Below the pieces are notes generated by a model. It searched no databases and had not been told where the DNA came from. It worked only from the letters and a program-made list of their open reading frames with translations. This document shows, piece by piece, positions 10,112 through 58,408 of a stretch of DNA of 64,000 nt (position 1 is the stretch's first letter; each line of letters opens with the position of its first letter). Source of the stretch: Vicinamibacteria bacterium (lineage in GTDB: Bacteria; Acidobacteriota; Vicinamibacteria; Fen-336). A program made the translations under genes and the position numbers. The stretch is taken from NCBI GenBank assembly GCA_963578825.1, contig CAUZDW010000008.1, positions 24,640 to 88,639 on the forward strand. Reading direction: 5' to 3'.

Positions 10112-13100
10112 ATGCGCGATCTGTGGCGATCCGTCGTGCTGGTTCTCGGGGTGGGGCTCGTGGTCGCCGCGGTCGTCTGCTCCCGCCCCCGACCCGTGGC
10201 CCGCGGACCACTCTCCCCTGCCGAGGCCGCCGTCGTCTCGGCGTTCACCGGGGGCACGATCTCCCGCGAGAGCCCAGTCCGGGTCGTGTTCAACGAACCC
10301 CTCGGCACGGGTCAGCCCCAGAACGCGCCTCTCGAGAGCGAGCCCTTCCGCTTTGACCCACCCCTCGAAGGGGTGACGGTCTGGACGTCTCCCAGCCGCC
10401 TCGAGTTCCGCCCCGGAGACCGTCTCGAGGAGGGCCGAACGTACTCCGCGCGCCTCGACCTCGAAGCCCTCCTCGGCAACGACGCCCCTGCCGATATCGA
10501 TCGCTTCGAGTTCACCTTCTCGGCGATGCGTCAGTCCTTCTCGGTCAACATCGAGGGCCTTCTGGCGGCGGACACGTCCGACATCGCCCAGCAGAAGCTG
10601 AGCGGGCGTCTCGTCACCGCCGATGTCGAGTCCGACGCGAAGGTCGAGCCACTGATCAGCGCCACTCAGGAGGGCAGAGCCCTCGAGATCGCCTGGAACC
10701 ACCACACGGACCGGCGCAGCCACGCTTTCGTAGTGAAAGCGATCGTCCGTGGCGACGAGACATCGAGTGTCGCTGTGCGGTGGGACGGCTCTTCGATCGG
10801 CGTGACCGAAGACGGCAGCCAGGAGATCGAGGTGCCTGCCGTCGACACGTTCACCGTGAGCCTGGCCCGCCCGGTGCAGGGCCGAGAGGAGTACGTGGAG
10901 CTGCGCTTCACGGACCCGCTGCGCCCCAACCAGAGCCTCAAGGGGCTCGTCGTCATCGGTGATCGGAAGGATCTCCGCTTCGTCATCCGCGGAAGCCTCG
11001 TCGAGATCTACGCCACGGGAGGCTTCTCGGGCGACCTGACCGTCCGGGTCGCCGCCGGTGTCAGAAACGCCCTCGGGTACCGCATGAAGGAAGCGCGCGA
11101 GCTGGGCGTTGCGTTCGAGCCGGTCAAGCCGCAGGTGCGCTTCGCCGGCACCGGCGTCATCGTGCCCACCTCGGCCAACCTAACCGTCGCCATCGAGGCC
11201 GTGAACCTCCGCGCTGTCGTCGTCGAGGCCATCCGGGTCCCCGAGACCAACCTCCCCCAGTTCCTGCAGGTGAACGACCTCGACGGCGAGCGGGAGCTGA
11301 ACCGTGTGGGTCGTGTCGTCTGGAGCAGGACCGTCTCCCTCGAGGTGACCGCCGACAAGCAGGATCGCCGGGTGGCGATCGGGCTGGATCTGTCTCCCCT
11401 CGTGGCGGACGGACCCGGCGGACTCTATCGGCTCACGCTCTCCTTCCGGCGCCCGCACATCCTGTGGTCGTGCCCGGGCGACGCCGCACTCGACGAGGAG
11501 CTGACGACCGCCAGCGAGCTGGCCACCGGCGAAGAGGAGGCCAGCTACTGGGACGCCTGGCTGCAGAACGAGGGCGACGATTGGCGGTCACGATACGAAG
11601 GCCGCCGCGACCCCTGCAACCCTGGCTACTACCAACACTTCTATGACCACGACATCCGCGCCTCGCGAAACGTCCTCGTGTCCGACATCGGTCTCATCGC
11701 CAAGGCGGGCGAGGACGGCACGGTGCTGCTGGTGGCCACGGACCTGCGTTCAGCGGCGCCCCTCCAGGGCGCTGCCGTCACGCTCACCGACTCTCAGCAC
11801 GGCACTCTCGCCACCGGGCACACCGGGGGCGACGGCCTCGTCCGCCTCGAGGTGGAGCGGGCTCCCTTCCTCGCCATGGCGCGCCACGGGAGACAGACCG
11901 GCTACCTGCGCCTCGACAACGGGAGCGCCCTCTCCATGGCGCATTTCGACGTCGCGGGGTCCCGGTCTCCCAAGGGTCTCAAGGGCTTTCTCTACGGCGA
12001 GCGGGGCGTCTGGCGGCCGGGCGACACGCTGCACCTCACGTTCATCCTCCAGGACCCCTCGGGACGGCTCGCCTCGGCCGAGCATCCTGTTCGCTTCGAG
12101 CTTCTCAACCCGCGGGGACAGGTGGTGCGGACGCTGACCCGGGCCGACTGGACCGACGGTTTCTCGGTCTTCGAGATCGCGACACCGCCGGACGCTCCCA
12201 CGGGCGCCTACACCGGGCGGGTCACGGTGGGCGGGGCGGTCTTCGAAAAGGCTCTCAAGATCGAGACGGTCATGCCCAACCGCCTCAAGATCGGCCTCGA
12301 CTTCGGACGGGAGATGCTGGAGTCGAGCGAAAGCCTGTCCGCCGCCCTGACGGCGACGTGGCTTCACGGTGCGACCGCCCGGAACCTGAAGGCCGACGTG
12401 GAGCTGGCGCTGTCCGCAGGGCGGACGCGGTTCGATCGCTGGGCCGAGTTCGTCTTCGACGACCCGACCCGGCGGTACGCGACCGAGCGCCAGACCGTCT
12501 TCGACGGCGCCCTCGACGCCTCCGGTCACGCGCGTGTCGACGCGCGGGTCGACCCGGGGGATGCTGCGCCCGGGATGCTCCGGGCCGACTTCACGACCCG
12601 TGTCTTCGAGCCCGGCGGGGCGTTCAGTATCGACCGCTTCAGCCTCCCGTTCTCGCCGTACGAGCGCTACATCGGCATCCGGCCGCCCAGGGGCGATCGG
12701 GCGCGGGGCATGCTCCTCACGGATACGACGCACGAGCTCAGCATCGTGGCGGTGGACTCCTCGGGACGCCCGGCGGGAGACGGCACGGTGGAGGTGAAGC
12801 TCTACAAGATCGACTGGCGCTGGTGGTGGGAGAAGGGCGAGCGTGGCCTGGCGGCGTGGGCGGAGGCGACCGCGCACACGCCCCTCGACTCGGGGGTGGT
12901 GACGCTCGAGGACGGAGTCGGGACGTGGCCCTTCGAGATCAAGCACCCCGAGTGGGGCCGCTACCTCATCACGGCTGCCGACCGGAAGGGCGGTCACCGG
13001 ACCGGGCAGGTCGTCTACATCGACTGGCCGGGATGGGCCGGGCGCGGGCGGAAGGAGGCCCAGGGGGCCACGGTCTTGACCTTCGCCGCCGAGAAGGAGG

Positions 13101-23690: not shown

Positions 23691-25211
23691 CTACCAGAAG
23701 TAGAGATACAAGCCGATCGTCAGGGCGACGATCACGGCCCCAAAGAGCTTTGCCCTCGGGCTCGCCTTGAGGTCGACCTCGCCGGCGTCCGGAATCTCCC
23801 TCGGTTCCCCTGGGCTCACGTGCGTGTAGAGGAGCATCGCCGCCGACGTCGTGAGGAAGGCGAGGGCCGCCACGTTCAGGTACGGACCGTCGACGACCCA
23901 GATGAAGACGCCGTAGAGGGGCACCGAGACGAGCAGCCCCATCACGGCCGCTCCGGCGGGGACCCTCTTGATGAACATCCCCAGAATGAAGACCGCGAGG
24001 ATGCCGGGCCAGATGAAGTTCCACGCCATCTGCATGTAGTCGTAGATGGGTCCCATTCGCCGCAGCTCGGGGGCAAGAAGGCACGCCAGGACCACGAACG
24101 CAGCGGTGCTCATCCGCCCCATGGCGACGAGGGCCTTTAGCGAAGGCTTCGATTTCGCCCAGTGGCGCTTGTAGAGATCGATCGTCAGGATCGTGGAGGC
24201 GGAGTTCAGCATCGAGTCGAGCGAGCTCATGATCGCCCCGAACAGCGCCGCGAACATGACGCCTCGGAGCCCGGACGGGAGCAGCCTCTTCATCAGAAAG
24301 GGATAGGCCTGATCGGCCTCGGGGACCTCGGAGCCGTAGAGCTAGAAGGCAATGATCCCGGGAAAGACGACAAGGAAGGGAATGACGAGCTTCAAGGCAG
24401 CGGCGAAGAGAATCCCCGGCTGCCCTTCCTCCAGGCTCTTGGCGGCGAGGGCGCGCTAGGTGATGAACTGATTCAAGCCCCAGTAGCAGATGTTCGGGAC
24501 CCAGATTCCCAGCAGAAAGATCGTCCACGGCATCGTGGAGTGGTCCGCCGGCAGGACCATGTGGAGCTTGTCCTGATTCACCTCCAGGAAGACGCCGAGG
24601 CCGCCCACTTCCCGAAGGCCGAGAACCAGCACGACCGCGCCCCCCAGCATCAGCGTGATCCCCTGGACGAGGTCGGACCACACGACAGCCTTGAGGCCGC
24701 CGTAGACCGTGTAGGCGCCCGCCCGCACTCCGATGCCCCAGATGCCGTAGTAGAGATTGACGCCGAAGATGCTGTTGAGCGCGAGACCGCCGGTGTAGAG
24801 GACGCCGGCCATGGCCGCGACCACGTACATGATCATCAGGTAGAAGGCCATGATGGCCCGGGCGGTCGCGTTGTAGCGGTACTCCAGGTACTCGGGGAGG
24901 GTGTAGATCCCGGCGCGCAGGAAGCGTGGGAGCAGCACCAGGGCGACGAAGACGAGAGCGATGGCCGCGATCCACTCGAAGCTGGCGATGGCGAGGCCCA
25001 GTTCGAAGCCCTTGCCTCCCATCCCGATGAAGTGCTCCGTCGAGATGTTGGACGCGACCAGCGACAGGCCGATGAGCCACCAGGTCAGGCTGCGGCCGGC
25101 GAGGAAGTAGTCCTCGGAGGTGTCTTCCTTGCGCGAGGCATACAGCGAGACCGCTATGACAAAGACGATGAATCCGACGAAGGTGCCGATGTCGACGCCA
25201 GAGAGTTCCAT
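23691..25211 (-). pseudogene. Sodium:solute symporter (SSF) interrupted by two in-frame TAG codons
   Basis: A single reading frame (start ATG = plus 25209-25211) gives MELSGVDIGTFVGFIVFVIAVSLYASRKEDTSEDYFLAGRSL…GLNQFIT*RALAAKSLEEGQPGILFAAALKLVIPFLVVFPGIIAF*LYGSE…, with TAGs at plus 24456-24458 and 24342-24344. The first falls where SSF proteins have the Q of the conserved Q-R-x-LAAKS motif. The track splits it into ORFs 24456..25370 and 23691..24293. Confidence 0.7.
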
Positions 25212-25353
25212 GCTCGATTTGATCGGACTCGCCTTTGGGAGTAGCGCTCCCGAGCGGCCTTTGGCTGATCCCGCGTGAGGGCAGATTACATCACGGATTT
25301 CGGAGAGGACGGTGGAGAATAAACTGCTCGACGCGGCGTGGTAGATTTCGTCG

Positions 25354-26436
25354 ATGGAAGGCGGGCTCAAGCTGGGGATCGTCGGTGCGGGACGGATCGG
25401 CGTCTTTCACGCGCAGCACGTCCAGGAGATCGCCAGCGACCGAGGCGACTGCACGCTGAGCGCTGTGATCGACGCCCACGAAGACACCGCCGAGCGCGTG
25501 GCGGCGCAGCTGCAGGAACGCCAGGGTCAGCCCGTCCGCGCGTTCCGCCGCATCGAGGAGGCGATCGACGCCGGGGGCCTCGACGCCGCGGTCGTGGCGT
25601 CTCGCACGGAGGACCATGAGGCCCACACGCGCACCCTCGTCGACGCCGGGTGTCGTGTGCTCCTCGAGAAGCCCCTCGCCAGCTCCTTCGAGAGTGCTGC
25701 GGCGCTGGCGGAGCACCTCGCCGCACTGCCGGGCGGAGATCGGGCGGTCATGCAGGCGTTTCAGCGCCGATTCGACGAGCCGCTCCGGCGGGCCAAGGCG
25801 CTTGTCGACGACGGCGCCGTCGGCCAACCGTTCAAGATTGTGTCGGTGCTCGAGGATCCCGACCCGCCGCCGGAGGGATATCAGAGCCCCGGCCTGCTCC
25901 CCGACATGTCCGTCCACAACGTCGACGAGGTCGTGTGGCTCCTGGGCCAGCGCCCGGATCGCGCGACCGCAATGGCCAGTCGGCTCTACAACACCGCCAT
26001 CGCCTCGGTGAAAGAGGATTTCGACGACGCGCTCATGACCATGTGGTTCCCTGGTGGTGCGGCCGCCCAGGTGCAGGTGAGCCGCAATCACGTCGCCGGC
26101 TACCGCAACGAGACCTGGGTCTACGGCGATCGCGGGGTCGTGCACGTCGGCGGGTTTCAGGAGGATCCGCTGCGGGTCGACGTCGAGGCCCTCGCCCGTG
26201 GCCGAGTCATCGCCCGGGAGACCTTCAGGATGAGATCGTACGACGCCCCCAGCGTGCCGGTGTTCGTCGAACGCTTCGGTCCCGCATACCGCGCCGAGAT
26301 GGTGCACTTCATCAACTGCGTCACCCGGGGCGAGCCGTTCGCGGTCACACACGAAGACGGTCTGGAAGCGCTGCGCATCGTGGAGGCCGCGGCCCGGGCG
26401 GTTCAGACCCGCGACGGCGCCCCGCAGGGCGTGTGA
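25354..26436 (+). CDS. Gfo/Idh/MocA family NAD(P)-dependent oxidoreductase (inositol/sugar dehydrogenase-like)
   Basis: N-terminal Rossmann LKLGIVGAGRIGVFHAQH, EKP motif VLLEKPLA, and a C-terminal alpha/beta domain. Divergent from the symporter gene. Confidence 0.8.
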   Translation: MEGGLKLGIVGAGRIGVFHAQHVQEIASDRGDCTLSAVIDAHEDTAERVAAQLQERQGQPVRAFRRIEEAIDAGGLDAAVVASRTEDHEAHTRTLVDAGCRVLLEKPLASSFESAAALAEHLAALPGGDRAVMQAFQRRFDEPLRRAKALVDDGAVGQPFKIVSVLEDPDPPPEGYQSPGLLPDMSVHNVDEVVWLLGQRPDRATAMASRLYNTAIASVKEDFDDALMTMWFPGGAAAQVQVSRNHVAGYRNETWVYGDRGVVHVGGFQEDPLRVDVEALARGRVIARETFRMRSYDAPSVPVFVERFGPAYRAEMVHFINCVTRGEPFAVTHEDGLEALRIVEAAARAVQTRDGAPQGV

Positions 26437-29885: not shown

Positions 29886-31685
29886 TCAGTGGCCCACTGC
29901 TCGGCCCTCGTTCTGCTCATCGAGCCAGGCGACCAGTGGCTCGAAGTATTCGACCAGGGCGGAGGCGTCCACTTCGCGCTGACCAGTGAGCGCCTCGAGG
30001 GCATCGGGCCAGGGCTGGCTCATGCCCATGGCCATCATGCGCCGTAGCCGATCGCCCGCCGCCTCGCTGCCGTAGATCGAGCAGCGGTAGAGCGGGCCTT
30101 CGTACCCGGCCTCGCGGCACAGCGCTCGATGAAACTGGAACTGGAGGATGCGGGCGAGGAAGTAACGCGTGTACGGCGTGTAGGCCGGCACGTGGTACTT
30201 GGCGCCAGGGTCGAAGTCGTCTTCGGTGCGAGGGGCGGGGGCCTCGATGCCCTGGTATTCCTCCCGCAGCTCCCACCATGCCTCGTTGTAGTGCTCGGGT
30301 GACAGCTCGCCCGAGAAGACCTTCCAGCGCCACTTGTCGATCACCAGGCCAAACGGCAGGAAGGACACCTTGTCGAGGGCGGTGCGGAGCAACAGGGCCA
30401 CGTCGGCGCTCGTGTCGGGCTCGCGGTCGAGCAGCCCGATCTCGACCAGGTAGCCCGGGGTGACCGAGAGGGCCACGGCGTCGCCGAGCGCCTCGTGGAA
30501 ACCGTCGTTGGCGCTCCCGCGGAAGAGAAACGGCTGCTGACGGTAGGCCCGCTGGTAGTAGTTGTGTCCCAGCTCGTGGTGCACGGTGACGAAATCCTCG
30601 GCGTCGACTTTGATGCACATCTTGATCCGGAGGTCCTGATTGTTGTCCACGTTCCAGGCACTCGCGTGACAGACCACCTCGCGATCCCTCGGCTTCACGA
30701 AGAGGGAGCGCTCCCAGAACGTGTCGGGGAGCGGCTCGAAGCCCAGGGACGAGAAGAAGCGCTCGCCGATTCTGACCAGCTCCAGCTCGTCGACACCCTT
30801 TCGACGGAGGAGCTCGGTGAGGTCGTAGCCTCGGCTTCCAGTGCCCAGCGCGACCAAGGGGTAGATGTTTCCCCACTCCTGAGCCCACATGTTCCCCAGG
30901 AGATGGGCGGGGATGGGCCCGGACTCCGGCACCTTGTCTGGCCCGTACCGGGCACGGAGCCCGGCACGCACGTGAGCGTGGAGGGCCTCGTAGAGGGGTT
31001 TCACCTGGCCCCACAGCCGGTCGAGCTCGGCCTCGAACTCGTCCGGGGCCATGTCGTAGTTCGACCGCCAAAGGACCCCGAGATCGTCGAAGCCCAGCTC
31101 GCGGGCGCCGGTGTTCCCGATCTCGACCGTGCGCTGGTACCTGGCCTTCATCGGAGGCGCGATGGTGCGCCACCCCTGCCACGCGTCGAGCAGCTCGTCG
31201 TAGTCACGACTCTCCGCCATGACCTTCTCGAGGTCGTTGAGCGGCCGGCCCTCGTGTTTTCCCTTGCCGTAGACACTCTCGAGGTCCACGGCGAGGCGGG
31301 CGAGCTCGGCCCGGTCGCCGGCGTCGGCTGGTCCGGGGAGGGTCTGGGAGAGCTTCAGGAGCTTCATCTGACGGGCGAGGTCGGGTGGAAGCTCGAGGCC
31401 ATCGTAGACCGCGGCCTCGGCAGCGAGCTCCACGCTGGTCCCCATGACGGCCTCTCGGGCCTCGGCCGCCACGGTGTCCGTGTCCCGGGTGATGAAGTTG
31501 GCCTGCACCCAGGCCGCGCGGGCCGATCGATTGTTGTCCTCCAGCAGGCGAGCGTTGGCGTCTTCCAGGAACGCCCGGGCATCGTCCACTGCGGGGACCG
31601 TCGTGCAGGCCGAAACGCCCAGGAGCGAAAGTGTCGTCGCGGCGGCCACTGCCGCCCATCGGCGCAGAGGGTGACTCTGTCTCAT
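29886..31685 (-). CDS. M2 family metallopeptidase (angiotensin-converting-enzyme-like peptidyl-dipeptidase), lipoprotein
   Basis: Signal with lipobox LLGVSAC. The zinc site HHELGHNYY plus downstream FHEALGD is the HEXXH...E arrangement of ACE/M2. SD GAGGAG before the ATG. Confidence 0.85.
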   Translation of the reverse strand: MRQSHPLRRWAAVAAATTLSLLGVSACTTVPAVDDARAFLEDANARLLEDNNRSARAAWVQANFITRDTDTVAAEAREAVMGTSVELAAEAAVYDGLELPPDLARQMKLLKLSQTLPGPADAGDRAELARLAVDLESVYGKGKHEGRPLNDLEKVMAESRDYDELLDAWQGWRTIAPPMKARYQRTVEIGNTGARELGFDDLGVLWRSNYDMAPDEFEAELDRLWGQVKPLYEALHAHVRAGLRARYGPDKVPESGPIPAHLLGNMWAQEWGNIYPLVALGTGSRGYDLTELLRRKGVDELELVRIGERFFSSLGFEPLPDTFWERSLFVKPRDREVVCHASAWNVDNNQDLRIKMCIKVDAEDFVTVHHELGHNYYQRAYRQQPFLFRGSANDGFHEALGDAVALSVTPGYLVEIGLLDREPDTSADVALLLRTALDKVSFLPFGLVIDKWRWKVFSGELSPEHYNEAWWELREEYQGIEAPAPRTEDDFDPGAKYHVPAYTPYTRYFLARILQFQFHRALCREAGYEGPLYRCSIYGSEAAGDRLRRMMAMGMSQPWPDALEALTGQREVDASALVEYFEPLVAWLDEQNEGRAVGH

Positions 31686-31710
31686 GGCTTTCTCCTCGTC
31701 TGTCTCGTTC

Positions 31711-33453
31711 TCACGTCTGGTCCAGGGACTCCACCCGGCCCGCGAGAGCGGCCAGGCCGTCGTCGAGGTCGGCAAGGGCGGACTCCGCCGCTCGCAGTCG
31801 ATCCCCCTCGGTTCGCACGAAGCGAGAATAGGGAGCGATGGCCTCGCGCACCTTCTGCAAGCTGCGGTCGCGCTCGCTCTCGAAGCTCGCGGTCAGGGAC
31901 GAGAGGAGCTTCTCGTGGAGGGAGGCCACCCTCGCCGCGAGCTCGGCCCGCGCCTTGCGACGGCGGGCAGGCAGGACGAAGAGCCCGAGCACCGAAAGGG
32001 CTCCGGCGGCCACCAGCCCGGTCACGTCGACAGCGGTGCTGGTGGCCAGGGTCGTCACCAGGGCGCCGAGTCCCAGGGCCGAGACTTGGAGGAGCGCCGT
32101 CTGGGCGACCGAGTCGCGCACGGTCTGAGCGAGGCGTCTGGCCTCGGCGGGGGCATCGTATCCATCGACTGCGCGCTGTGCCTCGGTGCGCACCGCCCCC
32201 AGAAGGCGCTGCCGGTCGTACCCGAAGCGATCCTCGACCCGACCCACCATCTTGTCGGCGTGGGCGACTTGCCGACCACCGAGGTGCTCCATGACGTCCT
32301 GCCACTGCCGGAGCTCCGCCTCCACCATCCAGTCGACGACCGCCTCCACCCGGGTCTCGACCTCGCGAGGCAGCTCGGCGACGACAGTCGTCTCGAAGTC
32401 CCGGCGGAGGCGCTCCTTGCTCAGCAGCTCGTGGATGCGCATCAGGCGAAGGCGCTCGTCGAAGAAAGCGTTCCCGCGCCGCTCGAAGTCGAGGAGGACC
32501 TTCTCGACGTCGGAGAGCCGCAGCCGGAAGTCCCGCTCCAAGTCGGCGCGACGGGCGGCGAGATCGGCCTCCACCGTTTCCAGCGTGTCGAGATCCCCCT
32601 CGAGAACCCTCAACCGGCCGTCGACGACCGCAGCCACCTCGCCGTGGACACGGCGGCCCACGCCCAGCGGGTTCTGGAGCTTCAAGCGGAACCGCTCGCC
32701 CTCGTCCAGGGTGGCGGTGACTCGGGCTTCGAAGGACTCGAGGCCGCTCGCGTCGAGCGCCACCTCGTCGCCGTCCAGACGGGCCTGAAGCGCCCGGCGG
32801 GCGGAGAGCGCGAACACCTCCGGCGCGAACCCGAGGGTCCGTTGCGCCTGGTCTCTCACATAGGTCACGACCCGTGAGACATCGTCCGGCGACTCGAGGA
32901 GATCGGCCTTGTTCACGACGACGATCACCTTCTTGCCCCAGGCCCGGATCGCCTCGAGAAAGGCCCGCTCGCTCTCGGCGAAAGGCCGATCGGAGGACGT
33001 GACGAACAGCACGAGGTCGGCGCGGGGGACGAACTCTCGGGTCAGGGCCTCGTGTTCTCTCAGCACCGCGTTCGTGCCCGGGGTGTCGACGATCACGAGA
33101 TCGCGGAGGATCTCGCTGGGGGCCGTGAGGCTCTCGAGCCCGGCCGCGGTCACCTCACGCCCCATCTCCTCACCGTGGCGAAGGAGACCAATGCGGGCCG
33201 TGGTCGGGGTGATTCCCTCCTCCAGCACTTTCTGGCCGAGGAGCGCGTTGATGAACGCGCTCTTCCCCGCGTTGAACTCCCCGACGACGACGAGCAGGAA
33301 GGGCTCCTCGAGCTGCTCGATCGAGTCGGCGAGGGCCTTCCGCTGCTCCTCGGGGGCCTCGAGTCGGACGAGCCAGTCCCGAAGCTCGCCGAGGAGGCGG
33401 CGCTCGTCGCCCAGGAGGGCGCGGCGCGTCTCGTCGAGGCTGGGCGTGATCAT
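31711..33453 (-). CDS. Bacterial dynamin-like GTPase (BDLP/DynA/LeoA family)
   Basis: G1 GEFNAGKSAFINALLG, G3 DTPG, G4 NKAD. Long coiled-coil stalk, then a C-terminal double hydrophobic paddle (LLQVSALGLGALVTTLA…LVAAGALSVLGLFVL). It ends 25 nt before the ACE-like gene start. Confidence 0.8.
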   Translation of the reverse strand: MITPSLDETRRALLGDERRLLGELRDWLVRLEAPEEQRKALADSIEQLEEPFLLVVVGEFNAGKSAFINALLGQKVLEEGITPTTARIGLLRHGEEMGREVTAAGLESLTAPSEILRDLVIVDTPGTNAVLREHEALTREFVPRADLVLFVTSSDRPFAESERAFLEAIRAWGKKVIVVVNKADLLESPDDVSRVVTYVRDQAQRTLGFAPEVFALSARRALQARLDGDEVALDASGLESFEARVTATLDEGERFRLKLQNPLGVGRRVHGEVAAVVDGRLRVLEGDLDTLETVEADLAARRADLERDFRLRLSDVEKVLLDFERRGNAFFDERLRLMRIHELLSKERLRRDFETTVVAELPREVETRVEAVVDWMVEAELRQWQDVMEHLGGRQVAHADKMVGRVEDRFGYDRQRLLGAVRTEAQRAVDGYDAPAEARRLAQTVRDSVAQTALLQVSALGLGALVTTLATSTAVDVTGLVAAGALSVLGLFVLPARRRKARAELAARVASLHEKLLSSLTASFESERDRSLQKVREAIAPYSRFVRTEGDRLRAAESALADLDDGLAALAGRVESLDQT

Positions 33454-49144: not shown

Positions 49145-50055
49145 CTAGTGTGGCCGCGCCAGCACGGCGAGCGCTGCTGCGCCCAGGCCCAGGGTCTCGC
49201 GCCACGGGAGGGACAAGCGATCCCCCGAGAAGAGTCGGGGCGCCGAGCCTGATGAAGCCATCTCCTGCAACCGGTCGCGAACGTTGTGGAGCTCACGAGC
49301 AAGATCGACAGTCGATGCGTAGCGCTCGGCGGGTTGCTTCTCGAGGCAGCGTTCGACGATCCACCGCGCCGGTGCGGGAAAAGAGGGGTTCAGCGACGAA
49401 AGAGGCTCCGGAGGAGCCTCGATGATTGCGGTCAGGGTCTGGGGCGGACTGTCGCGACGGAACGCCTGCCTCCCCGTCGCCATCTCGTAGACGATCGCCC
49501 CGAAGGAGAACTGATCGGACCGGAAGTCCACCACCTGGCCACGGGCCTGCTCGGGCGACATGTACCCGACGGTGCCAAGGACCGCGCCGTCCGCGGTCCT
49601 TGGAGAGTCCGGGCTGGCCGGCCAGGTGGAAAACTCCGAGCCGAACCAGACCTCTCGATCCCCGGAGGAGTGGCCCGCAGCTTGGCGAGACCGAAGTCGA
49701 GGACCTTGACGAGCCCGTCTCCGGTGACCATCACGCTCTCCGGCTTGAGGTCTCGGTGCACGATCTCCCGGAGGGTCTGTCCCTCGACGAGCTCCATCAC
49801 GATGTAGTGAAGGCCGGACTCTTCCCCGATCTCGTGGATCGTCACGATGTTCGGGTGGTTGAGGGAAGAGACCGCTCGGGATTCCTGGGCGAAGCGGGCG
49901 AGCCGAATCGGGTCGGACGCGAACCGCTCGGGAAGGAACTTCACCGCCACGTCGCAGTGGAGATCCTGGTCGTGGGCGCGGAAGACCTCTCCCATTCCCC
50001 CGACCCCGAGCTTGCCCGTGAGCTCGTAACGGCCGAACCGCATGCCAACCGACAC
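49145..50055 (-). pseudogene. Decayed Hanks-type Ser/Thr kinase (frameshift plus internal deletion)
   Basis: The N-terminal frame reads [20 protein letters not shown]...VAVKFL...HRDLKP...[10 protein letters not shown]. The activation-loop/APE region ([35 protein letters not shown]) continues in a different frame (track ORF 49145..49561). The segment between helix C and HRD (…[15 protein letters not shown]) is about 30 aa shorter than in kinase 1. Confidence 0.65.
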
Positions 50056-53712: not shown

Positions 53713-56391
53713 TCAGCGACCCCGGGGACGGCTCACGAGATTGGCCAGAAGCCGCCAGCCCCCGGGGACGCCGGCCGGGACCTGCCGGAAGAGCACGAGG
53801 CCCACGTAGGTCCAGGTCCCCTTGCCGACGCTGGCGTCGACGAGGATCCCCTTCTTCTCCCCGAGGTTGTTCGGGAAGGGATCGGTGGCGGCAAGAATCT
53901 CCACGTATCGAGGGTCTCTCGTGGCGAGAAAGTAGATCCCTCGCTCCTGCACCCACCCGGACCAGTCTGCATCGCCGAGCCGATTGGGCGCTGTGAGAAG
54001 AGCGTGGTCGGGGGCGAGGATCGTGAAGGATGCCGTCTCGTCGGTGATCCGCTGGCGGGTCACTGCCGCCGGGTAGGGGGCGAAGGGGCTCTCCGCCTCG
54101 CCACGGGATCGCCCCCGTGCGCGGCGGGGCGAAACCTGGTTGAACGCGAAGCGGTTGTATTGGACGACGAGGTGCCCGCCCGCCTCGACCCACTCCATGA
54201 GCCGATGGTGCACGGAGCGGAGATCGCGGCGGTTCTCGTACGCACGAATGCCGGTCACGATCGTCGAGAAGCGGGTCAAGTCTCCAAACGCCAGATCCTC
54301 GGCGGTGAGGAGCGTGAGGGGGACACCGAGCTGGCGAATGCCGTCGGCGACCGCATCTCCCGATCCCATCACGTAGCCGACCGAGGCGTCCGGCGCGACC
54401 CGGACGTCGAGGACGAGCACGTGCACTCGAGCGGCGTGGAGACGCTGTCGCCGGTGTGTGTGGTCGTAGGCGATCGCCTGCACAGTGTCCCGGTACTCGC
54501 GGCCCGCTCGAGAGGCAACGGCCTGGAGAACCACGGTGCCCGCGGTCGGCCGCGCCGGCGGCGTCACCTCGAAACGGGCGGCCACCTCTTCGCCCTCGTA
54601 GGCGAAGTGAAGCCGCATCTCGGATGGCTCGACGGTCCACCCCTCGGGCACCTCCAGCCGGACCATGGCCTCTCCGGTCCCGGAAGCGTTGTGGCGGGCG
54701 AAGACCCGAACCTCCAGGGGATGCCCCGCACCCGCCAGGGGCACGGCGGCTCGCTCCGGCGACACGCGAACCGATACCTCCGGGACGACCTGCACCACGT
54801 GCTGCTTCTCGCCTCCGACGAACGGACCGGGGTAGCGAAAGCGGGCGGGGGCCGTGAGCGTCGTCAGGGCGCCGGCGATGTGGATCTGCAGGCGGGCGAC
54901 GACGGCGGGCGGAGTCCAGGGGAGCGTCTCGTGAGCCGACACATCGAGGGCGTGGCGGTCGAGATCGCTCCGCCGGTGCCAGTAGGGTCCCGAGGGTCGG
55001 GCGTCGGCAGGCACGGTCACCGTGAACGTCAGACGCTCCTCCCCCGCGCCATCGATCCTTCCCATGACGGTCTGCGGCGCGGCAACCGTCCACCCCTCGG
55101 GCACCTCGACGGTGACATCGTCGACGTCGACGGGCGCGTCACCGTGGTTCCAGGCAGAGACGGTCACCTCGAACGACTGGCCAGGCGTCACCAGCCCGTC
55201 CTCGGCCCGGGCTTCGACGACGAGGCCCTGGGCCAGCACCAGGGCGCGCTCGATGTCCCGCTCTTCGTCCTTCAGGCGGGTGGCGATCTCGCCGCGGGCG
55301 ACGGAGTCAGGGACTTCGACGGGCAATCGCTCCAGGAAGGCGCGCGTCGCCTCCAGCGCTTCGGCCAGGGGGGGCGCCGCGTCGTCCAGGACCAGCGGGT
55401 TGAACGAATCCCGGGCGAGGGAAGCCTTCTCCTGCAGCTCGGCCAGCGAAGAACCGAGCGCGGACCCGGGGGCGAAGCGCGCGAGGCCGACGAGCGTCGT
55501 GTCCACCCCGTCGAGAATATCGTCCTCCGCCGCCTCGATTGCGGGCTCGGCGTCCACCAGGAAGTAGACGCCACGGGCCGGCCCGGGATCAGCCTTGAGC
55601 TGTCCCATGTCCTGGCACCGGTGCATGGATCGAGCAAGGCTTCCGAGCTCCTGCCACGTCATCCCGAGGAGGGGGTCAAAGACACCGGTCGCCATCTCGA
55701 CCGGCGTCCCGGGGAGGTCGACGGGAAAGCCGCCGGTTCCTCCCTGGTAGAGCTTCCGCGCCTGCCACGGCTCGAGACCCGCGCTCAGCTGGTCCGGAAA
55801 CCGCGCCGGGTCGGCGGCGGCGCGAAAGGCGTCCCGTGTGAGCTGGGCCACCGCTTGATGGTGCTGCCCCCCCCGACCGGGTGCCTCCAGCGGGAGAGTC
55901 AGCACGACGTCGGGGCGGAACGAACGGATGACCCGCACGATGTCCCCGGTGGTCTGCTCCCGACCCCACTTCTCCAGCGTCTCCTCCACACTGAAGGAGT
56001 AGCCGAACTCGTAGGGGCGGCCAAAGTACTGCTCCACGGCGTCCATCCGGTGCATCGCCATCAGCTCCTCGGTGCGGAGGACACCGAGGGCGTCGAACAG
56101 CTCGGAGCCAATGGCGTTCTGGCCGCCCTCGCCCCGGGTCAGGGTGAGGAGGGCGGTGCGCAGACCCATTCCGCGGGCCAGGCGGACGAGGAGGCCGTTG
56201 TGCTCGTCGTCAGGGTGAGCGGTGACGTAGAGCACGCGACCGCTCACGCCGACTCGCCTGAGAGCCAGCCCCAGCCCGCTGGCGCCGGTGTCGAGGGCAA
56301 GAGGCTCGAGCGGGGCTGTGGCCACAGCTCCGACGGAGACGACCATCGCCAGGGTCAGGAGCAGGACCAGAAACCTTCGCTCAGGATGCAT
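53713..56391 (-). CDS. Large (892 aa) PIG-L/LmbE-family N-acetylglucosaminyl deacetylase with long C-terminal extension
   Basis: Signal peptide, then VLYVTAHPDDEHNGLLVRLA (PIG-L HPDDE zinc motif). About 650 further aa with no motif I recognise. Confidence 0.7.
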   Translation of the reverse strand: MHPERRFLVLLLTLAMVVSVGAVATAPLEPLALDTGASGLGLALRRVGVSGRVLYVTAHPDDEHNGLLVRLARGMGLRTALLTLTRGEGGQNAIGSELFDALGVLRTEELMAMHRMDAVEQYFGRPYEFGYSFSVEETLEKWGREQTTGDIVRVIRSFRPDVVLTLPLEAPGRGGQHHQAVAQLTRDAFRAAADPARFPDQLSAGLEPWQARKLYQGGTGGFPVDLPGTPVEMATGVFDPLLGMTWQELGSLARSMHRCQDMGQLKADPGPARGVYFLVDAEPAIEAAEDDILDGVDTTLVGLARFAPGSALGSSLAELQEKASLARDSFNPLVLDDAAPPLAEALEATRAFLERLPVEVPDSVARGEIATRLKDEERDIERALVLAQGLVVEARAEDGLVTPGQSFEVTVSAWNHGDAPVDVDDVTVEVPEGWTVAAPQTVMGRIDGAGEERLTFTVTVPADARPSGPYWHRRSDLDRHALDVSAHETLPWTPPAVVARLQIHIAGALTTLTAPARFRYPGPFVGGEKQHVVQVVPEVSVRVSPERAAVPLAGAGHPLEVRVFARHNASGTGEAMVRLEVPEGWTVEPSEMRLHFAYEGEEVAARFEVTPPARPTAGTVVLQAVASRAGREYRDTVQAIAYDHTHRRQRLHAARVHVLVLDVRVAPDASVGYVMGSGDAVADGIRQLGVPLTLLTAEDLAFGDLTRFSTIVTGIRAYENRRDLRSVHHRLMEWVEAGGHLVVQYNRFAFNQVSPRRARGRSRGEAESPFAPYPAAVTRQRITDETASFTILAPDHALLTAPNRLGDADWSGWVQERGIYFLATRDPRYVEILAATDPFPNNLGEKKGILVDASVGKGTWTYVGLVLFRQVPAGVPGGWRLLANLVSRPRGR

Positions 56392-56434
56392 CGAAGCCCC
56401 CTCTTTTTCGGCTCGGTCGACGAACCAACGGCGC

Positions 56435-57634
56435 TCAGCGCCGCTTCAGGTTGAGAACCAGCCGGAGATTGAGGCGCAGCCGCGTGGTGCCCGGCGCGAT
56501 CTCGATGTCGACTGGCACCTCGACCTCGGCCGTCTCTGCGGTCGCCGGGGCTGGCGCGGCGACCGCCGGGGCCGGCGCTGCGGCCGGCGGCGGTGCCGAG
56601 GAGATCGCCGGTGGCGGCGTCGGGGGTGGTGTGACCGGAGCGGCAGGCATCGGGACGTGGCTCGCGCTCCGGTGATCCGGCAGCTCGTCGATCTCCTCGA
56701 GATCCATCTCGATCTCGGGCTCCGGAATCCCCGGGTTGGCGATTCGACGCCTGAGCTCCGCCGCCTCATCCCGCGAGCTCACCAGGGTTCCCTGCGGGTC
56801 GTGGGCAATGACGGCGCTCGGCTGAGGGATCGGTGCTCCGTAGGCGGAAGCCGGCGTGTCCTCGTGGATCACCATCGGGCGAGCGCTGGCGACGGGCTCT
56901 TCGACCTCGACGGCCGGGTCCCCGAGAAGGTTCGGCGCCGGGGCTGGTGCGGGTGCCGGCGGCGGGGCCACGGCGACGGGCGGGGCGGCGCGAGGCGGGG
57001 CGGGGGCCCGGCCCGCTCCTGGAGCGACTGGGGGAGGCGCGGCATCGCCGTACTTCGCCGAGAGCGACTTGAACACGAGCTTCGTGACCGCCTTGAGCGT
57101 GTCCTCGACCCCGGCCCCGTTGACGGCGATCGCCTCGTTGAACGGGTAGTTGTGGGGGTTCATCCGCTCGTTCAGGATCTCGATGGGCAGGGCGTTGGGC
57201 AGGTCTCGCTTGTTGTACTGAAGAACGATGGGGATCTCGTCGGGGTCGATCTCGTTGGCCTCGAGATTCTGTCGCATGTTCTCGAAGCTCTCGAGGTTGG
57301 CATCGAGCATCGCCTCCTGAGAATCACAGACGAAGACCAGAGCGTCGGCTCCCTTCAAGACCATCCGCCGCGTGGCGTTGTAGAACACCTGACCCGGGAC
57401 CGTGTACAGCTGGATGCGGGTCTTCATCCCGCGGATGCTCCCGATCTCGATGGGAAGGAAGTCGAAGAAGAGGGTGCGGTCCGTCTCGGTTGCCAGCGAG
57501 AGCATCTTGCCTTTGTTCTTGATGGGCAGCTTCTCATGGATCCACTGGAGGTTCGTGGTCTTGCCGCACAGTCCTGGCCCGTAGTAGACGATCTTGACCG
57601 TCAGCTCCTTCGTCGAGTAGTTCAAGAAGACCAT
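56435..57634 (-). CDS. MglA-like Ras-superfamily GTPase with about 200-aa Pro/Ala-rich C-terminal extension
   Basis: The first 195 aa read as a close MglA-family GTPase (…KIVYYGPGLCGKTTNLQ…TETDRTLFFDFLPIEIGSIRGMKTRIQLYTVPGQ…VLQYNKRDLPNA…). A low-complexity tail follows (APPPVAPGAGRAPAPP…PAPAPAPAP…PPPTPPPAISSAPPPAAAPAPAVAAPAPA), ending …RLRLNLRLVLNLKRR. Confidence 0.8.
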   Translation of the reverse strand: MVFLNYSTKELTVKIVYYGPGLCGKTTNLQWIHEKLPIKNKGKMLSLATETDRTLFFDFLPIEIGSIRGMKTRIQLYTVPGQVFYNATRRMVLKGADALVFVCDSQEAMLDANLESFENMRQNLEANEIDPDEIPIVLQYNKRDLPNALPIEILNERMNPHNYPFNEAIAVNGAGVEDTLKAVTKLVFKSLSAKYGDAAPPPVAPGAGRAPAPPRAAPPVAVAPPPAPAPAPAPNLLGDPAVEVEEPVASARPMVIHEDTPASAYGAPIPQPSAVIAHDPQGTLVSSRDEAAELRRRIANPGIPEPEIEMDLEEIDELPDHRSASHVPMPAAPVTPPPTPPPAISSAPPPAAAPAPAVAAPAPATAETAEVEVPVDIEIAPGTTRLRLNLRLVLNLKRR

Positions 57635-57739
57635 GCGTTTACGAGCATTTTACGGCCGGCCAGCCGGGCGAATCAACGTGGGCTGCTAGAATCGTCCTCC
57701 CGGGAGGACGGACGCCCATTTCCCGCAGGAGACAGACAG

Positions 57740-58408
57740 ATGCCCATTTTCGCTCTCGTCCTCGTGCTGGTTCAGGCCTCGGACGCCCCGCCGCCGGCCC
57801 CGGCGGCCCCAGTGCTCTCGGGGCCCACGGTGGCGCTCGACCTGTCTCAGGCGGGGCAGAGCCTCGGGACCATCACGATCGTGCTCCGGCCGGAGGAGGC
57901 GCCCTTGTCCGTCGCCAACTTCCTCCAGTACCTGCGCGCCGGCCACTACGACGGGACGATCTTCCACCGGGTCATGTCGGACTTCATGATCCAGGGGGGC
58001 GGTTTCACCCCGGAGATGGAAGAGAAGCCCACGAGAGACTCGATCCGGAACGAGGCCCGAAACGGCCTTCGGAATTCCCGAGGGACTGTCTCCATGGCCC
58101 GGACGGACGCGGCCAACAGCGCCACCGCCCAGTTCTTCATCAACGTCCGCAACAACCACAGCCTCGACTTCGGAATCCGGGGAGCCGGCTACGCCGTCTT
58201 CGGCCAGGTGATCGACGGGATGGACGTGGTGGATCTCGTCGTGCAGGCATCCACGACCCGCCGGGGGGAGCACAATGACACGCCCACGCGGGCGGTGATC
58301 ATCCAGAAGGCGTACGAGGTAGAGCCCGTGGCGGCGCCGTCGGCTCTCGCTCCCGAGGCCGAGGCAGGGGATGGCGGGCCACCCGTGGCCCCTCCGGAGG
58401 GGCGCTAG
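57740..58408 (+). CDS. Cyclophilin-type peptidyl-prolyl cis-trans isomerase, secreted
   Basis: Signal MPIFALVLVLVQASDA; FHRVMSDFMIQGGGF...SMARTDAANSATAQFFIN. Confidence 0.85.
   Translation: MPIFALVLVLVQASDAPPPAPAAPVLSGPTVALDLSQAGQSLGTITIVLRPEEAPLSVANFLQYLRAGHYDGTIFHRVMSDFMIQGGGFTPEMEEKPTRDSIRNEARNGLRNSRGTVSMARTDAANSATAQFFINVRNNHSLDFGIRGAGYAVFGQVIDGMDVVDLVVQASTTRRGEHNDTPTRAVIIQKAYEVEPVAAPSALAPEAEAGDGGPPVAPPEGR

What the first reader, a model, noticed from the sequence alone, without database searches (positions are those of the whole stretch)
53713..57634. Orphan MglA-like GTPase fused to a long Pro/Ala-rich tail, apparently co-transcribed with a giant PIG-L deacetylase
The first about 195 aa are a close MglA homologue (all G-motifs including the MglA-specific PGQ/TxxD arrangement). 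A roughly 200-aa low-complexity PA/PPP tail follows, ending in a basic hydrophobic patch (RLRLNLRLVLNLKRR). No mglB (Roadblock/LC7 GAP) is adjacent, although MglA normally operates with MglB in a conserved mglBA operon. The gene ends 43 nt before an 892-aa secreted PIG-L-family deacetylase on the same strand, and the GldA/F/G-like ABC cluster is 0.8 kb away. A polarity GTPase tethered by a PA-rich linker and coupled to envelope polysaccharide deacetylation is not a described arrangement.
Basis: partly seen in the sequence, partly recalled or inferred. Interest (0 to 1): 0.6.

Follow-up and report, generated by a model that had tools for sequence, protein, structure and literature searches.

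The report
Long-tailed MglA switch GTPase of Vicinamibacteria
This is a real, intact MglA-type polarity GTPase carrying a conserved 200-residue C-terminal tail (flexible Pro/Ala linkers, acidic motifs and a terminal beta-hairpin) that is shared by at least 178 relatives in soil Acidobacteriota, has not been described, and probably builds regulation or tethering into the switch itself.

Summary
ORF 56435..57634(-) encodes 399 aa. Residues 1-196 are a Group-1 MglA GTPase: about 60% identical to M. xanthus MglA (E 7e-74), with all catalytic residues intact. The 203-aa tail is 43% Pro+Ala. It ends 43 nt before an exported 892-aa PIG-L protein.

The fusion is not an artefact. 178 intact homologues (379-552 aa) share the architecture, and the shorter database versions are frameshift truncations. 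Genome hits are all Vicinamibacteria/Acidobacteriota MAGs.

The tail is not mere low complexity. Two Pro/Ala linkers separate conserved islands: a helix, a D/E-rich motif resembling the MglB C-terminal helix, and a confidently predicted terminal beta-hairpin. The MglA pocket that binds such acidic helices is conserved.

No mglB lies in the window or within 10 kb in the 7 related loci with Pfam-annotated gene calls; tblastn found none in the window or 24 loci. The whole genome could not be searched. Orphan and extended MglAs are known, including in Acidobacteria.

PIG-L follows on the same strand in 21 of 24 informative loci. A convergent 303-aa gene intervenes in 9. Co-transcription is therefore possible here but not obligatory.

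Verdict: new variant of a known kind. The tail's function is inferred, not shown.

The parts
56435..57634 (-). mglA-long coding sequence (399 aa plus stop)
   Evidence: ORF. GC3 0.86. It is 100% identical to database protein P0001 and has at least 178 intact homologues of 379-552 aa.
57047..57634 (-). GTPase domain, aa 1-196: Group-1 MglA with G1 GPGLCGKT, R53/T54, D58, TVPGQ and NKRD. The allosteric-pocket residues I64, I67, K181 and K185 are present.
   Evidence: PDB phmmer E 6.8e-74 to MxMglA. 59% identity. AF2 pLDDT 85-94 over most of the domain, Foldseek TM 0.92 to 6izw_A. G21, R53, TVPGQ and NKRD are invariant in 178/178.
56927..57046 (-). Tail segment 1, aa 197-236: Pro/Ala-rich linker containing the conserved GRAPxPPR motif (aa 208-215)
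   Evidence: 65% Pro+Ala over the 197-245 segment. R209 is invariant and G208, P213 and P214 are nearly invariant. The strict motif is present in 129/178. pLDDT is about 56-59 over most of it, falling below 50 at its C-terminal end.
56807..56926 (-). Tail segment 2, aa 237-276: weakly conserved acidic/hydrophobic short motifs (NLLGD.., family consensus DDLLGELDL, and LPPIEFDEDTP)
   Evidence: Alignments. Motif counts are 123/178 and 94/178. Predicted disordered.
56675..56806 (-). Tail segment 3, aa 277-320: conserved island HDPQGTLVSSRDEAAELRRRIA (helix 288-299), then PGIPEPEIEMDLEEIDEL (D/E-rich amphipathic motif, aa 306-317)
   Evidence: T283, L312 and E314 are invariant; E290, L294, R295, I298 and several others are invariant or nearly invariant (>=90%). 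Helix pLDDT 77. The motifs are retained in distant members P0165, P0172, P0157 and P0151. Resemblance to the MglB Ct-helix EISDDDIDNLF.
56534..56674 (-). Tail segment 4, aa 321-367: second Pro/Ala-rich linker, variable in length and sequence
   Evidence: 65% Pro+Ala. Poorly aligned and gappy in A1, A3 and A5. pLDDT 38-54.
56438..56533 (-). Tail segment 5, aa 368-399: terminal amphipathic beta-hairpin TAEVEVPVDIEIAPGTTRLRLNLRLVLNLKRR. One strand is acidic and one basic, and they share a hydrophobic face.
   Evidence: AF2 strands 368-380 and 384-395 with pLDDT 80-91. This is the most conserved part of the tail. It is present in all 178 members, by selection. Apart from one weak 1,356-aa hit that was not examined (P0159, E 1.1e-06), every hit inspected among 1.84e9 representatives belonged to this family.
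57647..57676 (-). Promoter-like site TTGATT-18 nt-TAAAAT whose -10 box ends 12 nt before the mglA-long ATG. No Shine-Dalgarno sequence, so probably a leaderless or near-leaderless mRNA.
   Evidence: Scan hit: 3 found against 0.2 expected. Sequence. The element TTG(A/C)..-17/18-TAGAAT-N12-ATG is conserved in 24 aligned loci, including distant ones.
57740..58408 (+). Divergently transcribed cyclophilin-type peptidyl-prolyl isomerase, PpiA-like, with a hydrophobic N-terminal signal-like segment
   Evidence: PF00160 E 6.7e-42. NCBIfam PpiA 188.8 bits, below the 308-bit equivalog cut-off. It is the neighbour in every locus that extends far enough, including distant L023, L024, L026 and the P0217 contig.
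56392..56434 (-). 43-nt spacer between mglA-long and PIG-L. It has no terminator-like hairpin, and GAGGGGG lies 6 nt before the PIG-L ATG.
53713..56391 (-). Exported 892-aa PIG-L/LmbE-family deacetylase with two NEW3 (NPCBM-associated) domains and an unassigned C-terminal third
   Evidence: PF02585 54.3 bits (cut-off 28.2) and PF10633. AHPDDE motif and an N-terminal RRFLVLLL..AVATA signal-like segment in the translation. Only distant PDB relative is LnmX 5bmo.

Best explanation
The gene encodes the Vicinamibacteria (Acidobacteriota) form of the MglA polarity/motility switch. It is a catalytically competent Group-1 MglA GTPase that has acquired a lineage-specific C-terminal extension.

Shown:
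- The GTPase domain is about 60% identical to M. xanthus MglA. All residues needed for GTP binding, intrinsic-arginine catalysis and GAP responsiveness (G21, R53, Q82) are invariant in 178 family members.
- The tail is conserved in architecture: Pro/Ala linker, acidic short motifs, an amphipathic helix plus a D/E-rich motif, a second Pro/Ala linker, and a terminal beta-hairpin.
- This tail module was seen only attached to this MglA clade.
- The gene has its own conserved promoter ending 12 nt before the ATG, and no mglB is nearby.

Inferred:
- The two Pro/Ala stretches act as flexible spacers.
- The D/E-rich motif (E308-L317) can occupy, in cis, the allosteric pocket of MglA (I64, I67, K181, K185). 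In Myxococcus that pocket receives the acidic C-terminal helix of MglB or of RomR and promotes nucleotide exchange.
- The terminal hairpin has a continuous hydrophobic face that must be buried. It therefore either docks back on the GTPase domain or mediates self-association or attachment to a fixed partner.
- The protein would thus be a switch with part of its regulation and/or localisation built in, analogous to fusing a RomR-like output (Pro-rich linker plus Glu-rich helix) to MglA.

The downstream PIG-L deacetylase and the upstream cyclophilin are conserved neighbours. In this genome PIG-L may be co-transcribed by read-through. Both have N-terminal export-signal-like segments and are probably exported, and the adjacency is breakable, so a direct mechanistic coupling is not supported.
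For: MglA identity:
- sequence; model TM 0.91-0.92 to 6izw_A and 6h5b_A; invariant catalytic residues.
- Group-1 criteria (intrinsic Arg next to the G2 Thr; TVPGQ) come from PMC4316618.

Family and taxon:
- The 120 best hits to the window protein are all 379-454 aa.
- The 120 best hits to the distant member P0172 are 337-552 aa.
- 178 intact members, median about 409 aa.
- 17 genome loci, all Vicinamibacteria/Acidobacteriota MAGs.

Tail conservation and exclusivity:
-.
- A tail-only profile found 55 representatives among 1.84e9. Every one with an N-terminus carries an MglA domain, and the rest examined look like fragments of the same family.

Structure:
- Hairpin pLDDT 80-91 and helix pLDDT 77.
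- pTM is 0.57, about 0.10 more than the GTPase domain alone can contribute. This hints that the hairpin and helix are positioned relative to the domain (my arithmetic, indirect).

Pocket:
- K181/K185 and L64/I67 form the Ct-helix pocket. [quoted passage not shown]
- In this family, K181 is K in 155/155 matched sequences, K185 is K in 150/155, position 64 is I or L, and position 67 is I or V.

RomR analogy:
- Its Pro-rich linker and Glu-rich C-terminus are independent pole-targeting determinants (PMC3441718).

Promoter.

Neighbourhood.

No mglB locally: and the Pfam columns.
Against: - Nothing shows what the tail does.
- AF2 does not place the D/E motif with confidence (pLDDT about 50) and assigns it no helix.
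- I had no PAE or coordinates, so docking of the hairpin on the GTPase is not demonstrated.
- The resemblance of EMDLEEIDEL to the MglB Ct-helix is a short acidic-motif similarity that could arise by chance in an acidic disordered region.
- The tail has no detectable homology to RomR-C. There is no Trp in most tails, and RomR was not retrieved.
- mglB, romR, romX or a second, canonical mglA may exist elsewhere in these genomes, which I could not search. In that case the tail need not replace anything.
- These bacteria are uncultured, and whether they are motile or polar is unknown.
Confidence: 0.55

Rival explanations
1. One reading: the tailed GTPase and the PIG-L deacetylase form a functional unit. 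A polarity switch would be coupled, through co-transcription, to spatially controlled deacetylation of an envelope polysaccharide.
For: - There is a 43-nt gap, no terminator, and a Shine-Dalgarno sequence before PIG-L.
- PIG-L lies downstream on the same strand in 21 of 24 informative loci, and within 220 nt in 12.
- Those 12 include two of the most divergent family members, whose outer flanks differ (L023, L026).
- In the P0217 contig the genes beyond PIG-L are different, yet the core is kept.
Against: - In 9 loci a conserved convergent 303-aa gene separates the two genes by 0.8-2.2 kb, so they cannot be one operon there.
- In L008 and L013 PIG-L is absent within 10 kb, and in L009 it is 8.9 kb away.
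- All loci come from one bacterial class, so shared synteny may be inherited rather than selected.
- PIG-L has an N-terminal export signal, whereas MglA is cytoplasmic.
- No known MglA effector is a deacetylase.
Confidence: 0.2
2. It is a SofG-like accessory paralogue. The genomes would also carry a canonical mglBA (and perhaps romR/romX) elsewhere. The tail would serve only to bind a cytoskeletal or polar scaffold, as the Pro-rich extension of SofG is reported to do (my recollection of Bulyha et al. 2013, not read here).
For: - Extended, MglB-uncoupled Group-1 paralogues coexist with canonical mglBA in Myxococcota and Geobacter (PMC4316618 Table S2).
- SofG works with a bactofilin and has no known GAP (PMC4316618).
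- The invariant G21, R53 and Q82 imply a cycling GTPase that would normally need a GAP.
Against: - The GTPase domain is as close to MxMglA (59-61%) as canonical MglAs of other phyla are.
- It is extremely conserved within the family: more than 90% identity in many members, while neighbouring genes are 53-72% identical. That is the behaviour expected of the principal MglA.
- All relatives listed with 87% or higher identity to the GTPase domain are tailed or frameshift-truncated tailed forms. The next-best hits listed are about 60%-identical 195-197-aa MglAs; those that carry names are Myxococcota, most carry no name, and only the top 120 hits are shown.
- The extension is C-terminal, not N-terminal, and shows no detectable homology outside this clade.
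Confidence: 0.2
3. Artefact: a frameshift or assembly error has fused an ordinary mglA to a downstream Pro-rich ORF, or the tail is a non-coding GC-rich read-through.
For: - GC-rich Pro/Ala tracts are error-prone.
- Several public relatives are indeed mis-assembled.
Against: - 178 independent intact homologues from many samples have the same architecture and conserved tail motifs.
- GC3 in the tail is 0.82, and the other frames contain stops.
- The errors seen in databases shorten the protein; they do not lengthen it.
Confidence: 0.01

Closest known systems
MglA of Myxococcus xanthus / Thermus thermophilus (Group-1 MglA; PDB 5ymx, 6izw, 3t12)
   Same: - The GTPase domain aligns residue for residue from Met1 to about 192 (59% identity).
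- It has the same P-loop, the intrinsic Arg53, TVPGQ, NKRD, and the G1-G2 insertion.
- The allosteric pocket residues (64, 67, K181, K185) are the same.
- The predicted fold has TM 0.91-0.92.
   Different: - It is 399 aa instead of 195-196, with a conserved 203-aa C-terminal extension.
- It is not preceded by mglB. It has its own apparently leaderless promoter instead of an mglBA operon.
SofG and other extended, MglB-uncoupled Group-1 MglA paralogues (MXAN_6703 298 aa, MXAN_2693 372 aa, sce2413 433 aa, Geobacter about 290 aa)
   Same: They are MglA-family GTPases longer than a single domain and are not encoded next to mglB (PMC4316618 Table S2).
   Different: - Those are accessory paralogues beside a canonical mglBA.
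- SofG's functional extension is N-terminal, from my own knowledge of Bulyha et al. 2013, which I did not read here.
- The tail profile of this family retrieved none of them among 1.84e9 proteins.
RomR output region (Pro-rich unstructured linker plus Glu-rich helical RomR-C)
   Same: - The composition and layout match: long Pro-rich disordered spacers followed by a conserved acidic segment.
- In RomR both parts are pole-targeting determinants, and the Glu-rich helix can act at the MglA allosteric pocket (PMC3441718; PMC6785124).
   Different: - There is no receiver domain.
- There is no RomR-C signature (invariant Trp). 162 of 178 tails contain no Trp or Cys.
- There is no detectable homology.
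- Here the module is covalently attached to MglA and ends in a beta-hairpin that RomR lacks.
C-terminal helix of MglB (EISDDDIDNLF)
   Same: It is a short D/E-rich amphipathic segment on a flexible tether. Aligned to E308-MDLEEIDEL-P318, it gives 4 identical and 4 conservative positions out of 11 (my alignment).
   Different: - It is not attached to a Roadblock/LC7 domain.
- AF2 does not predict it as a helix.
- Binding has not been tested.
MglB-less MglAs: Bdellovibrio bacteriovorus MglA and Candidatus Koribacter versatilis Acid345_0708
   Same: They are MglAs without an adjacent or genomic mglB. Koribacter is also an acidobacterium.
   Different: - Those are 194-197-aa single-domain proteins.
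- Bdellovibrio MglA has Ser21 and is thought to be GTP-locked. This family keeps Gly21 in 178/178.

Membership tests
MglA family, Group 1 (Wuichet & Sogaard-Andersen 2014) | P-loop GxxxxGK(T/S) and NKxD guanine-specificity motif | tested here: met
   GPGLCGKT at 19-26 and NKRD at 141-144. Present in 178/178 family members.
MglA family, Group 1 (Wuichet & Sogaard-Andersen 2014) | Intrinsic arginine finger adjacent to the conserved G2 threonine | tested here: met
   TETDR53T54. Invariant in 178/178. Criterion taken from PMC4316618.
MglA family, Group 1 (Wuichet & Sogaard-Andersen 2014) | G3 motif TVPGQ (Thr instead of Asp; catalytic Gln) | tested here: met
   T78-V-P-G-Q82. T[V/G]PGQ in 178/178.
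MglA family, Group 1 (Wuichet & Sogaard-Andersen 2014) | Bacterial MglA insertion between G1 and G2; overall sequence and fold similarity to solved MglAs | tested here: met
   Gap-free alignment to MxMglA 1-192, E 6.8e-74. AF2 model TM 0.92 and rmsd 1.9 A to 6izw_A.
MglA family, Group 1 (Wuichet & Sogaard-Andersen 2014) | Single-domain protein of about 170-200 aa | tested here: not met
   399 aa. Family range is 379-552 aa.
MglA family, Group 1 (Wuichet & Sogaard-Andersen 2014) | GTP hydrolysis and nucleotide-dependent polar localisation controlling motility | not testable with these tools
   Requires biochemistry and cell biology in an uncultured lineage.
Coupled mglBA module | mglB (Roadblock/LC7, PF03259) encoded within four genes of mglA | tested here: not met
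   No Robl_LC7 among the called genes within 10 kb (or to the contig end) in 7 loci. None among the window ORFs scanned. tblastn with MxMglB against the window plus 24 loci gave best E 1.9. The 168-aa unknown gene near the histidine kinase is a lipoprotein.
Coupled mglBA module | mglB present anywhere in the same genome | not testable with these tools
   Only 64 kb plus 10-kb flanks of relatives could be read.
SofG-type MglA paralogue | N-terminal extension that mediates bactofilin binding; divergent GTPase domain beside a canonical MglA | tested here: not met
   The N-terminus aligns with MglA residue 1 and the extension is C-terminal. The presence of a second mglA was not testable.
RomR | N-terminal receiver domain and C-terminal RomR-C with invariant Trp/Pro and conserved Glu | tested here: not met
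   No REC domain. 162/178 tails lack Trp/Cys. The tail profile retrieves only MglA-linked sequences.
Gliding-motility ABC transporter GldA/GldF/GldG | Match to the GldG equivalog model (TIGR03521) at its cut-off | tested here: not met
   82.1 bits against a cut-off of 389.85. Only the generic ABC_transp_aux, DUF7088 and DUF4340 families match.
PIG-L / LmbE deacetylase family (neighbour gene) | PF02585 above the gathering score, with the metal-binding AHPDDE motif | tested here: met
   54.3 bits against 28.2. VTAHPDDE at aa 57-64. The substrate is unknown. Mycothiol and bacillithiol equivalogs are far below cut-off.

The most novel reading that the evidence does not exclude
The tail makes this MglA a self-contained polarity switch. 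The D/E-rich motif would act in cis at the alpha5/beta2-beta3 allosteric pocket as a built-in exchange factor or brake. The terminal hairpin would bind the beta2 face exposed in the GTP state, or anchor the protein to a pole or scaffold. One polypeptide would then replace the MglB C-terminal helix and RomR functions, and these Acidobacteriota would run an MglA cycle without MglB.
Probability: 0.2. Interest if true: 0.7.

Novelty: new variant of a known kind. Interest (0 to 1): 0.45.

Why it matters
MglA is the best-studied bacterial Ras-like switch. Its regulation is understood almost entirely from Myxococcus, where GAP, GEF and targeting functions are supplied in trans by MglB, RomR/RomX and others.

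A large, strongly conserved clade in abundant but uncultured soil Acidobacteriota carries conserved acidic motifs and a beta-hairpin on a flexible leash, attached to an otherwise near-canonical MglA. This offers a natural experiment on how the allosteric pocket and the beta2 face of MglA are used. It also suggests that polarity control exists in a phylum where it has not been studied.

There is a practical annotation lesson too. Current pipelines call these proteins 'signal recognition particle receptor subunit beta'. Many MAG versions are frameshift-truncated in the GC-rich Pro tract.

Tried and rejected
- Pfam and NCBIfam scans of the tail alone, even at E up to 10, found nothing.
- The first AF2 run used 95 near-identical family members and was unusable (mean pLDDT 54). 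Adding distant tailed members and Myxococcota MglAs fixed the GTPase domain and the hairpin, but not the D/E motif.
- The afdb50 structure library was unavailable. Foldseek against PDB matched only the GTPase domain.
- I suspected that the conserved 168-aa Pfam-less gene beside the histidine kinase might be a hidden Roadblock/MglB, by analogy with the actinobacterial conservon. It has a lipoprotein signal peptide, so I rejected the idea.
- I first concluded that the tight mglA-PIG-L juxtaposition was a lineage-specific result of losing the 303-aa gene. I withdrew this after finding tight adjacency in the most divergent members, L023 and L026. Which arrangement is ancestral remains open.
- The short (213-318 aa) relatives that looked like tail-less forms turned out to be frameshift truncations.
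- Cluster look-up gave no curated names or accessions.
- Literature searches for MglA in Vicinamibacteria or Acidobacteriota, or for tailed MglAs, returned nothing relevant.
- A functional link between the Pro-rich tail and the neighbouring cyclophilin was considered and judged unlikely. The isomerase is PpiA-like with an N-terminal signal-like segment, so it is probably periplasmic.

Full report
**What is in the sequence**

The 399-aa ORF is at 56435..57634(-). The 892-aa ORF is at 53713..56391(-), 43 nt downstream. The window is 64-72% G+C, and both ORFs show the high third-position G+C of real genes.

Pfam sees only weak Ras/Arf similarity in the first protein. A search of solved structures shows what it is. 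Residues 1-192 align without a gap to M. xanthus MglA (5ymx, E 6.8e-74) and to T. thermophilus MglA (3t12, E 1.3e-67). Identity to MxMglA is 59%.

The features that define Group-1 MglA are the intrinsic arginine next to the G2 threonine and the G3 motif TVPGQ (PMC4316618). Both are present (R53-T54; T78-Q82). So are the P-loop GPGLCGKT and a canonical NKRD.

**The tail is real and conserved**

The last 203 residues are 22.7% Pro and 20.7% Ala. The reading frame is continuous, with GC3 of 0.82, and the other frames contain stops.

- A search of 5.8 billion proteins returned 120 best hits that are all 379-454 aa.
- A second search, seeded with a distant 552-aa member, returned 120 hits of 337-552 aa.
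- In total I hold 178 intact members with a median length of about 409 aa.
- The few relatives of 213-318 aa end in Arg-rich out-of-frame sequence just after the GRAPGPPR motif. They are frameshift truncations in error-prone assemblies.

If anything, the artefacts run the other way.

**Anatomy of the tail**

Alignments show five parts:

1. A Pro/Ala linker (aa 197-236) containing GRAPxPPR.
2. Weakly conserved acidic/hydrophobic motifs (consensus DDLLGELDL and LPPIEFDEDTP).
3. A well-conserved island, aa 277-320: HDPQGTLVSSRDEAAELRRRIA followed by PGIPEPEIEMDLEEIDEL.
4. A second, variable Pro/Ala linker (aa 321-367).
5. The most conserved element, TEVEVPIDIEVAPGTTRxxLNLRLVLNLRRR at the C-terminus.

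A tail-only profile searched against 1.84 billion representative proteins found only 55 hits. Every hit that has an N-terminus begins with this MglA domain, and the others examined are fragments of the same family. One weak 1,356-aa hit (P0159, E 1.1e-06) was not examined. The tail has no Pfam or NCBIfam match.

AlphaFold2 with a diversified alignment gave the following:

| Region | pLDDT |
|---|---|
| GTPase domain | 85-94 over most of it |
| Helix 288-299 | 77 |
| Two 12-13-residue strands, 368-380 and 384-395 | 80-91 |
| Linkers | below 50 over most of their length |

The hairpin has one face made entirely of Val/Ile/Leu. The other face is acidic on one strand and basic on the other, so it must bury its hydrophobic face somewhere.

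The pTM is 0.57. That exceeds what the 196-residue domain alone could contribute (about 0.47), which hints that the hairpin and helix are placed relative to the domain. I had neither PAE nor coordinates, so this is only an indication.

**Who has it**

A scan of one genome per species with the tail profile found 17 loci. All are in MAGs labelled Vicinamibacteria or uncultured Acidobacteriota.

Within the family the GTPase domain is extraordinarily conserved: more than 90% identical in many members. Neighbouring genes are only 53-72% identical in the more divergent loci. G21, R53, TVPGQ and NKRD are invariant in 178/178.

**Is it an orphan?**

By the operational definition (mglB within four genes; PMC4316618), it is.

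- No Roadblock/LC7 gene appears among the called genes within 10 kb (or to the contig end) in seven related loci.
- None appears among the window ORFs I scanned.
- tblastn with M. xanthus MglB found nothing in the window or 24 loci. I first verified that query against PDB 6h5b_B.
- A conserved 168-aa unknown gene beside the histidine kinase is a lipoprotein, not MglB.

I could not search whole genomes, so mglB elsewhere is not excluded.

Orphan status is not itself novel.

- 59 of 449 MglA-family proteins are uncoupled, and extended uncoupled paralogues of 270-433 aa are tabulated.
- 9 of 70 MglA-bearing species lack MglB altogether, among them the acidobacterium Koribacter (PMC3983030).
- Bdellovibrio MglA has Ser21 and is thought to be GTP-locked. 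This family keeps Gly21, Arg53 and Gln82, so it looks like a cycling GTPase.

**Expression and neighbours**

Immediately upstream of the ATG lies TTGATT-18-TAAAAT. Across 24 loci, including distant ones, TTG(A/C)..-17/18-TAGAAT-N12-ATG is conserved almost base for base. With only 12 nt between the -10 box and the ATG, and no Shine-Dalgarno sequence, the mRNA is probably leaderless. This is an inference.

That gene is a PpiA-like cyclophilin at 57740..58408(+), with a hydrophobic N-terminal segment. It is the neighbour in every locus that extends far enough, including the most divergent.

**The PIG-L link**

In the window there is no terminator between the genes, and GAGGGGG precedes the PIG-L ATG. 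Read-through is therefore plausible.

Across 24 informative, distinct loci:

| Arrangement | Loci |
|---|---|
| PIG-L on the same strand within 220 nt | 12, including distant L023 and L026 |
| PIG-L 0.8-2.2 kb away, with a conserved convergent 303-aa gene between | 9 |
| PIG-L absent within 10 kb | 2 (L008, L013) |
| PIG-L 8.9 kb away | 1 (L009) |

The 303-aa gene is weakly similar to ParB/Srx-fold proteins.

The neighbourhood is thus conserved, even where the outer flanks differ. It is not a fixed operon, and all the genomes belong to one class.

PIG-L carries an N-terminal RRFLV...AVATA export-type signal. It has a PIG-L domain with AHPDDE plus two NEW3 domains. It probably acts outside the cytoplasm. 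I therefore rate a direct functional coupling as possible but unsupported.

The upstream ABC genes are generic ABC-2 / ABC_transp_aux / DUF4340 proteins and not GldA/F/G equivalogs.

**How it most likely works**

Shown: this is an intact Group-1 MglA switch with a conserved, clade-restricted C-terminal module on flexible spacers, expressed from its own promoter, without a nearby mglB.

Inferred, from published MglA biology:

- In Myxococcus a D/E-rich helix on a flexible tether binds an allosteric pocket formed by L64, I67, K181 and K185 and promotes nucleotide exchange. The helix comes from the C-terminus of MglB, and the Glu-rich end of RomR can replace it. Such lysines are conserved mainly in MglAs whose partner carries such a helix (PMC6785124).
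- The pocket is conserved in this family: I/L64, I/V67, K181 in 155/155 matched sequences and K185 in 150/155.
- The tail carries a D/E-rich amphipathic motif, retained in 163 of 178 members by pattern with L312 and E314 invariant in the 95-sequence alignment, that aligns plausibly with EISDDDIDNLF.
- RomR itself is a domain followed by a Pro-rich disordered linker and a Glu-rich helix, both of which target the protein to the poles (PMC3441718).

The simplest reading is that this lineage has attached an analogous module directly to MglA. The acidic motif would act in cis at the pocket. The hairpin would either dock on the GTPase or mediate self-association or anchoring.

Against this:

- AF2 does not place the acidic motif.
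- There is no detectable homology to RomR or MglB.
- A short acidic similarity can be coincidental.

**Verdict**

The object is a new variant of a known kind: a long-tailed MglA clade of Vicinamibacteria. I found no description of it in the literature I could search. Its tail function, and whether it dispenses with MglB, are open and testable.

Noticed in passing
window 57647-57700; aligned upstream regions of L001-L026: Two back-to-back, strongly conserved sigma-70-type promoters with TAGAAT -10 boxes lie in the short mglA-long/cyclophilin intergenic region. The mglA-long box ends 12 nt before the ATG with no Shine-Dalgarno sequence, which suggests a leaderless mRNA. In the window, a perfect 18-bp palindrome CGTCCTCCCGGGAGGACG (57693-57710) lies in the cyclophilin leader.
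   Followed up: partly
L003:11310-12221(-), L005:11250-12161(-); also L008, L009, L012-L016, L018, L020, L024, L025; absent from the window: A conserved 303-aa gene (about 80-89% identical among most loci) lies between mglA-long and PIG-L in about half of the loci. It is usually convergent with mglA-long. It has no Pfam hit and only weak ParB/Noc/SerK-like (ParB/Srx fold, NGHHR motif) similarity. It is unclear whether it was inserted or lost.
   Followed up: partly
database proteins P0245, P0247, P0255, P0257, P0264, P0279, P0260; also P0048 and P0053: Many public MAG versions of this gene are truncated or scrambled by frameshifts in the GC-rich Pro/Ala tract, giving Arg-rich out-of-frame ends. 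Automated names for intact members are misleading ('signal recognition particle receptor subunit beta').
   Followed up: yes
window 53713-56391(-), N-terminus: The PIG-L protein begins MHPERRFLVLLLTLAMVVSVGAVATAP. The RRFLV motif looks like a twin-arginine (Tat) export signal. The C-terminal third (about aa 640-892) has no domain assignment.
   Followed up: no
window 49432-50055(-): This is a remnant of a Ser/Thr protein kinase. The Pkinase match covers model positions 1-88 and then jumps to about 170-198, followed by Arg/Pro-rich sequence. Relatives have an intact 886-917-aa kinase-TPR protein at this position, so this is probably a pseudogene or an assembly error in the window.
   Followed up: partly
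window 10112-15673(+) and 15692-18169(+): A bacterial alpha-2-macroglobulin (1853 aa) is immediately followed by a PBP1C-type transglycosylase/transpeptidase. This is the known conserved pairing.
   Followed up: no
window 29886-31775(-) and 31711-33453(-): An angiotensin-converting-enzyme-like M2 peptidase (E 5e-215) lies next to a bacterial dynamin-like GTPase.
   Followed up: no
window 23691-24293(-) and 24456-25370(-): A sodium:solute symporter appears split into two ORFs, one matching the N-terminal and one the C-terminal part of the SSF model. This is a possible frameshift.
   Followed up: no
window 9326-10023(-): A PIN-domain toxin with an AbrB/MazE-type antitoxin (VapBC-like pair).
   Followed up: no
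L019 and L022 (both from MAG MFD00905.bin.3.32): One MAG contains two complete copies of the whole syntenic region (ABC cluster, cyclophilin, mglA-long, PIG-L) on different contigs. This is more likely two strains binned together than a true duplication.
   Followed up: no
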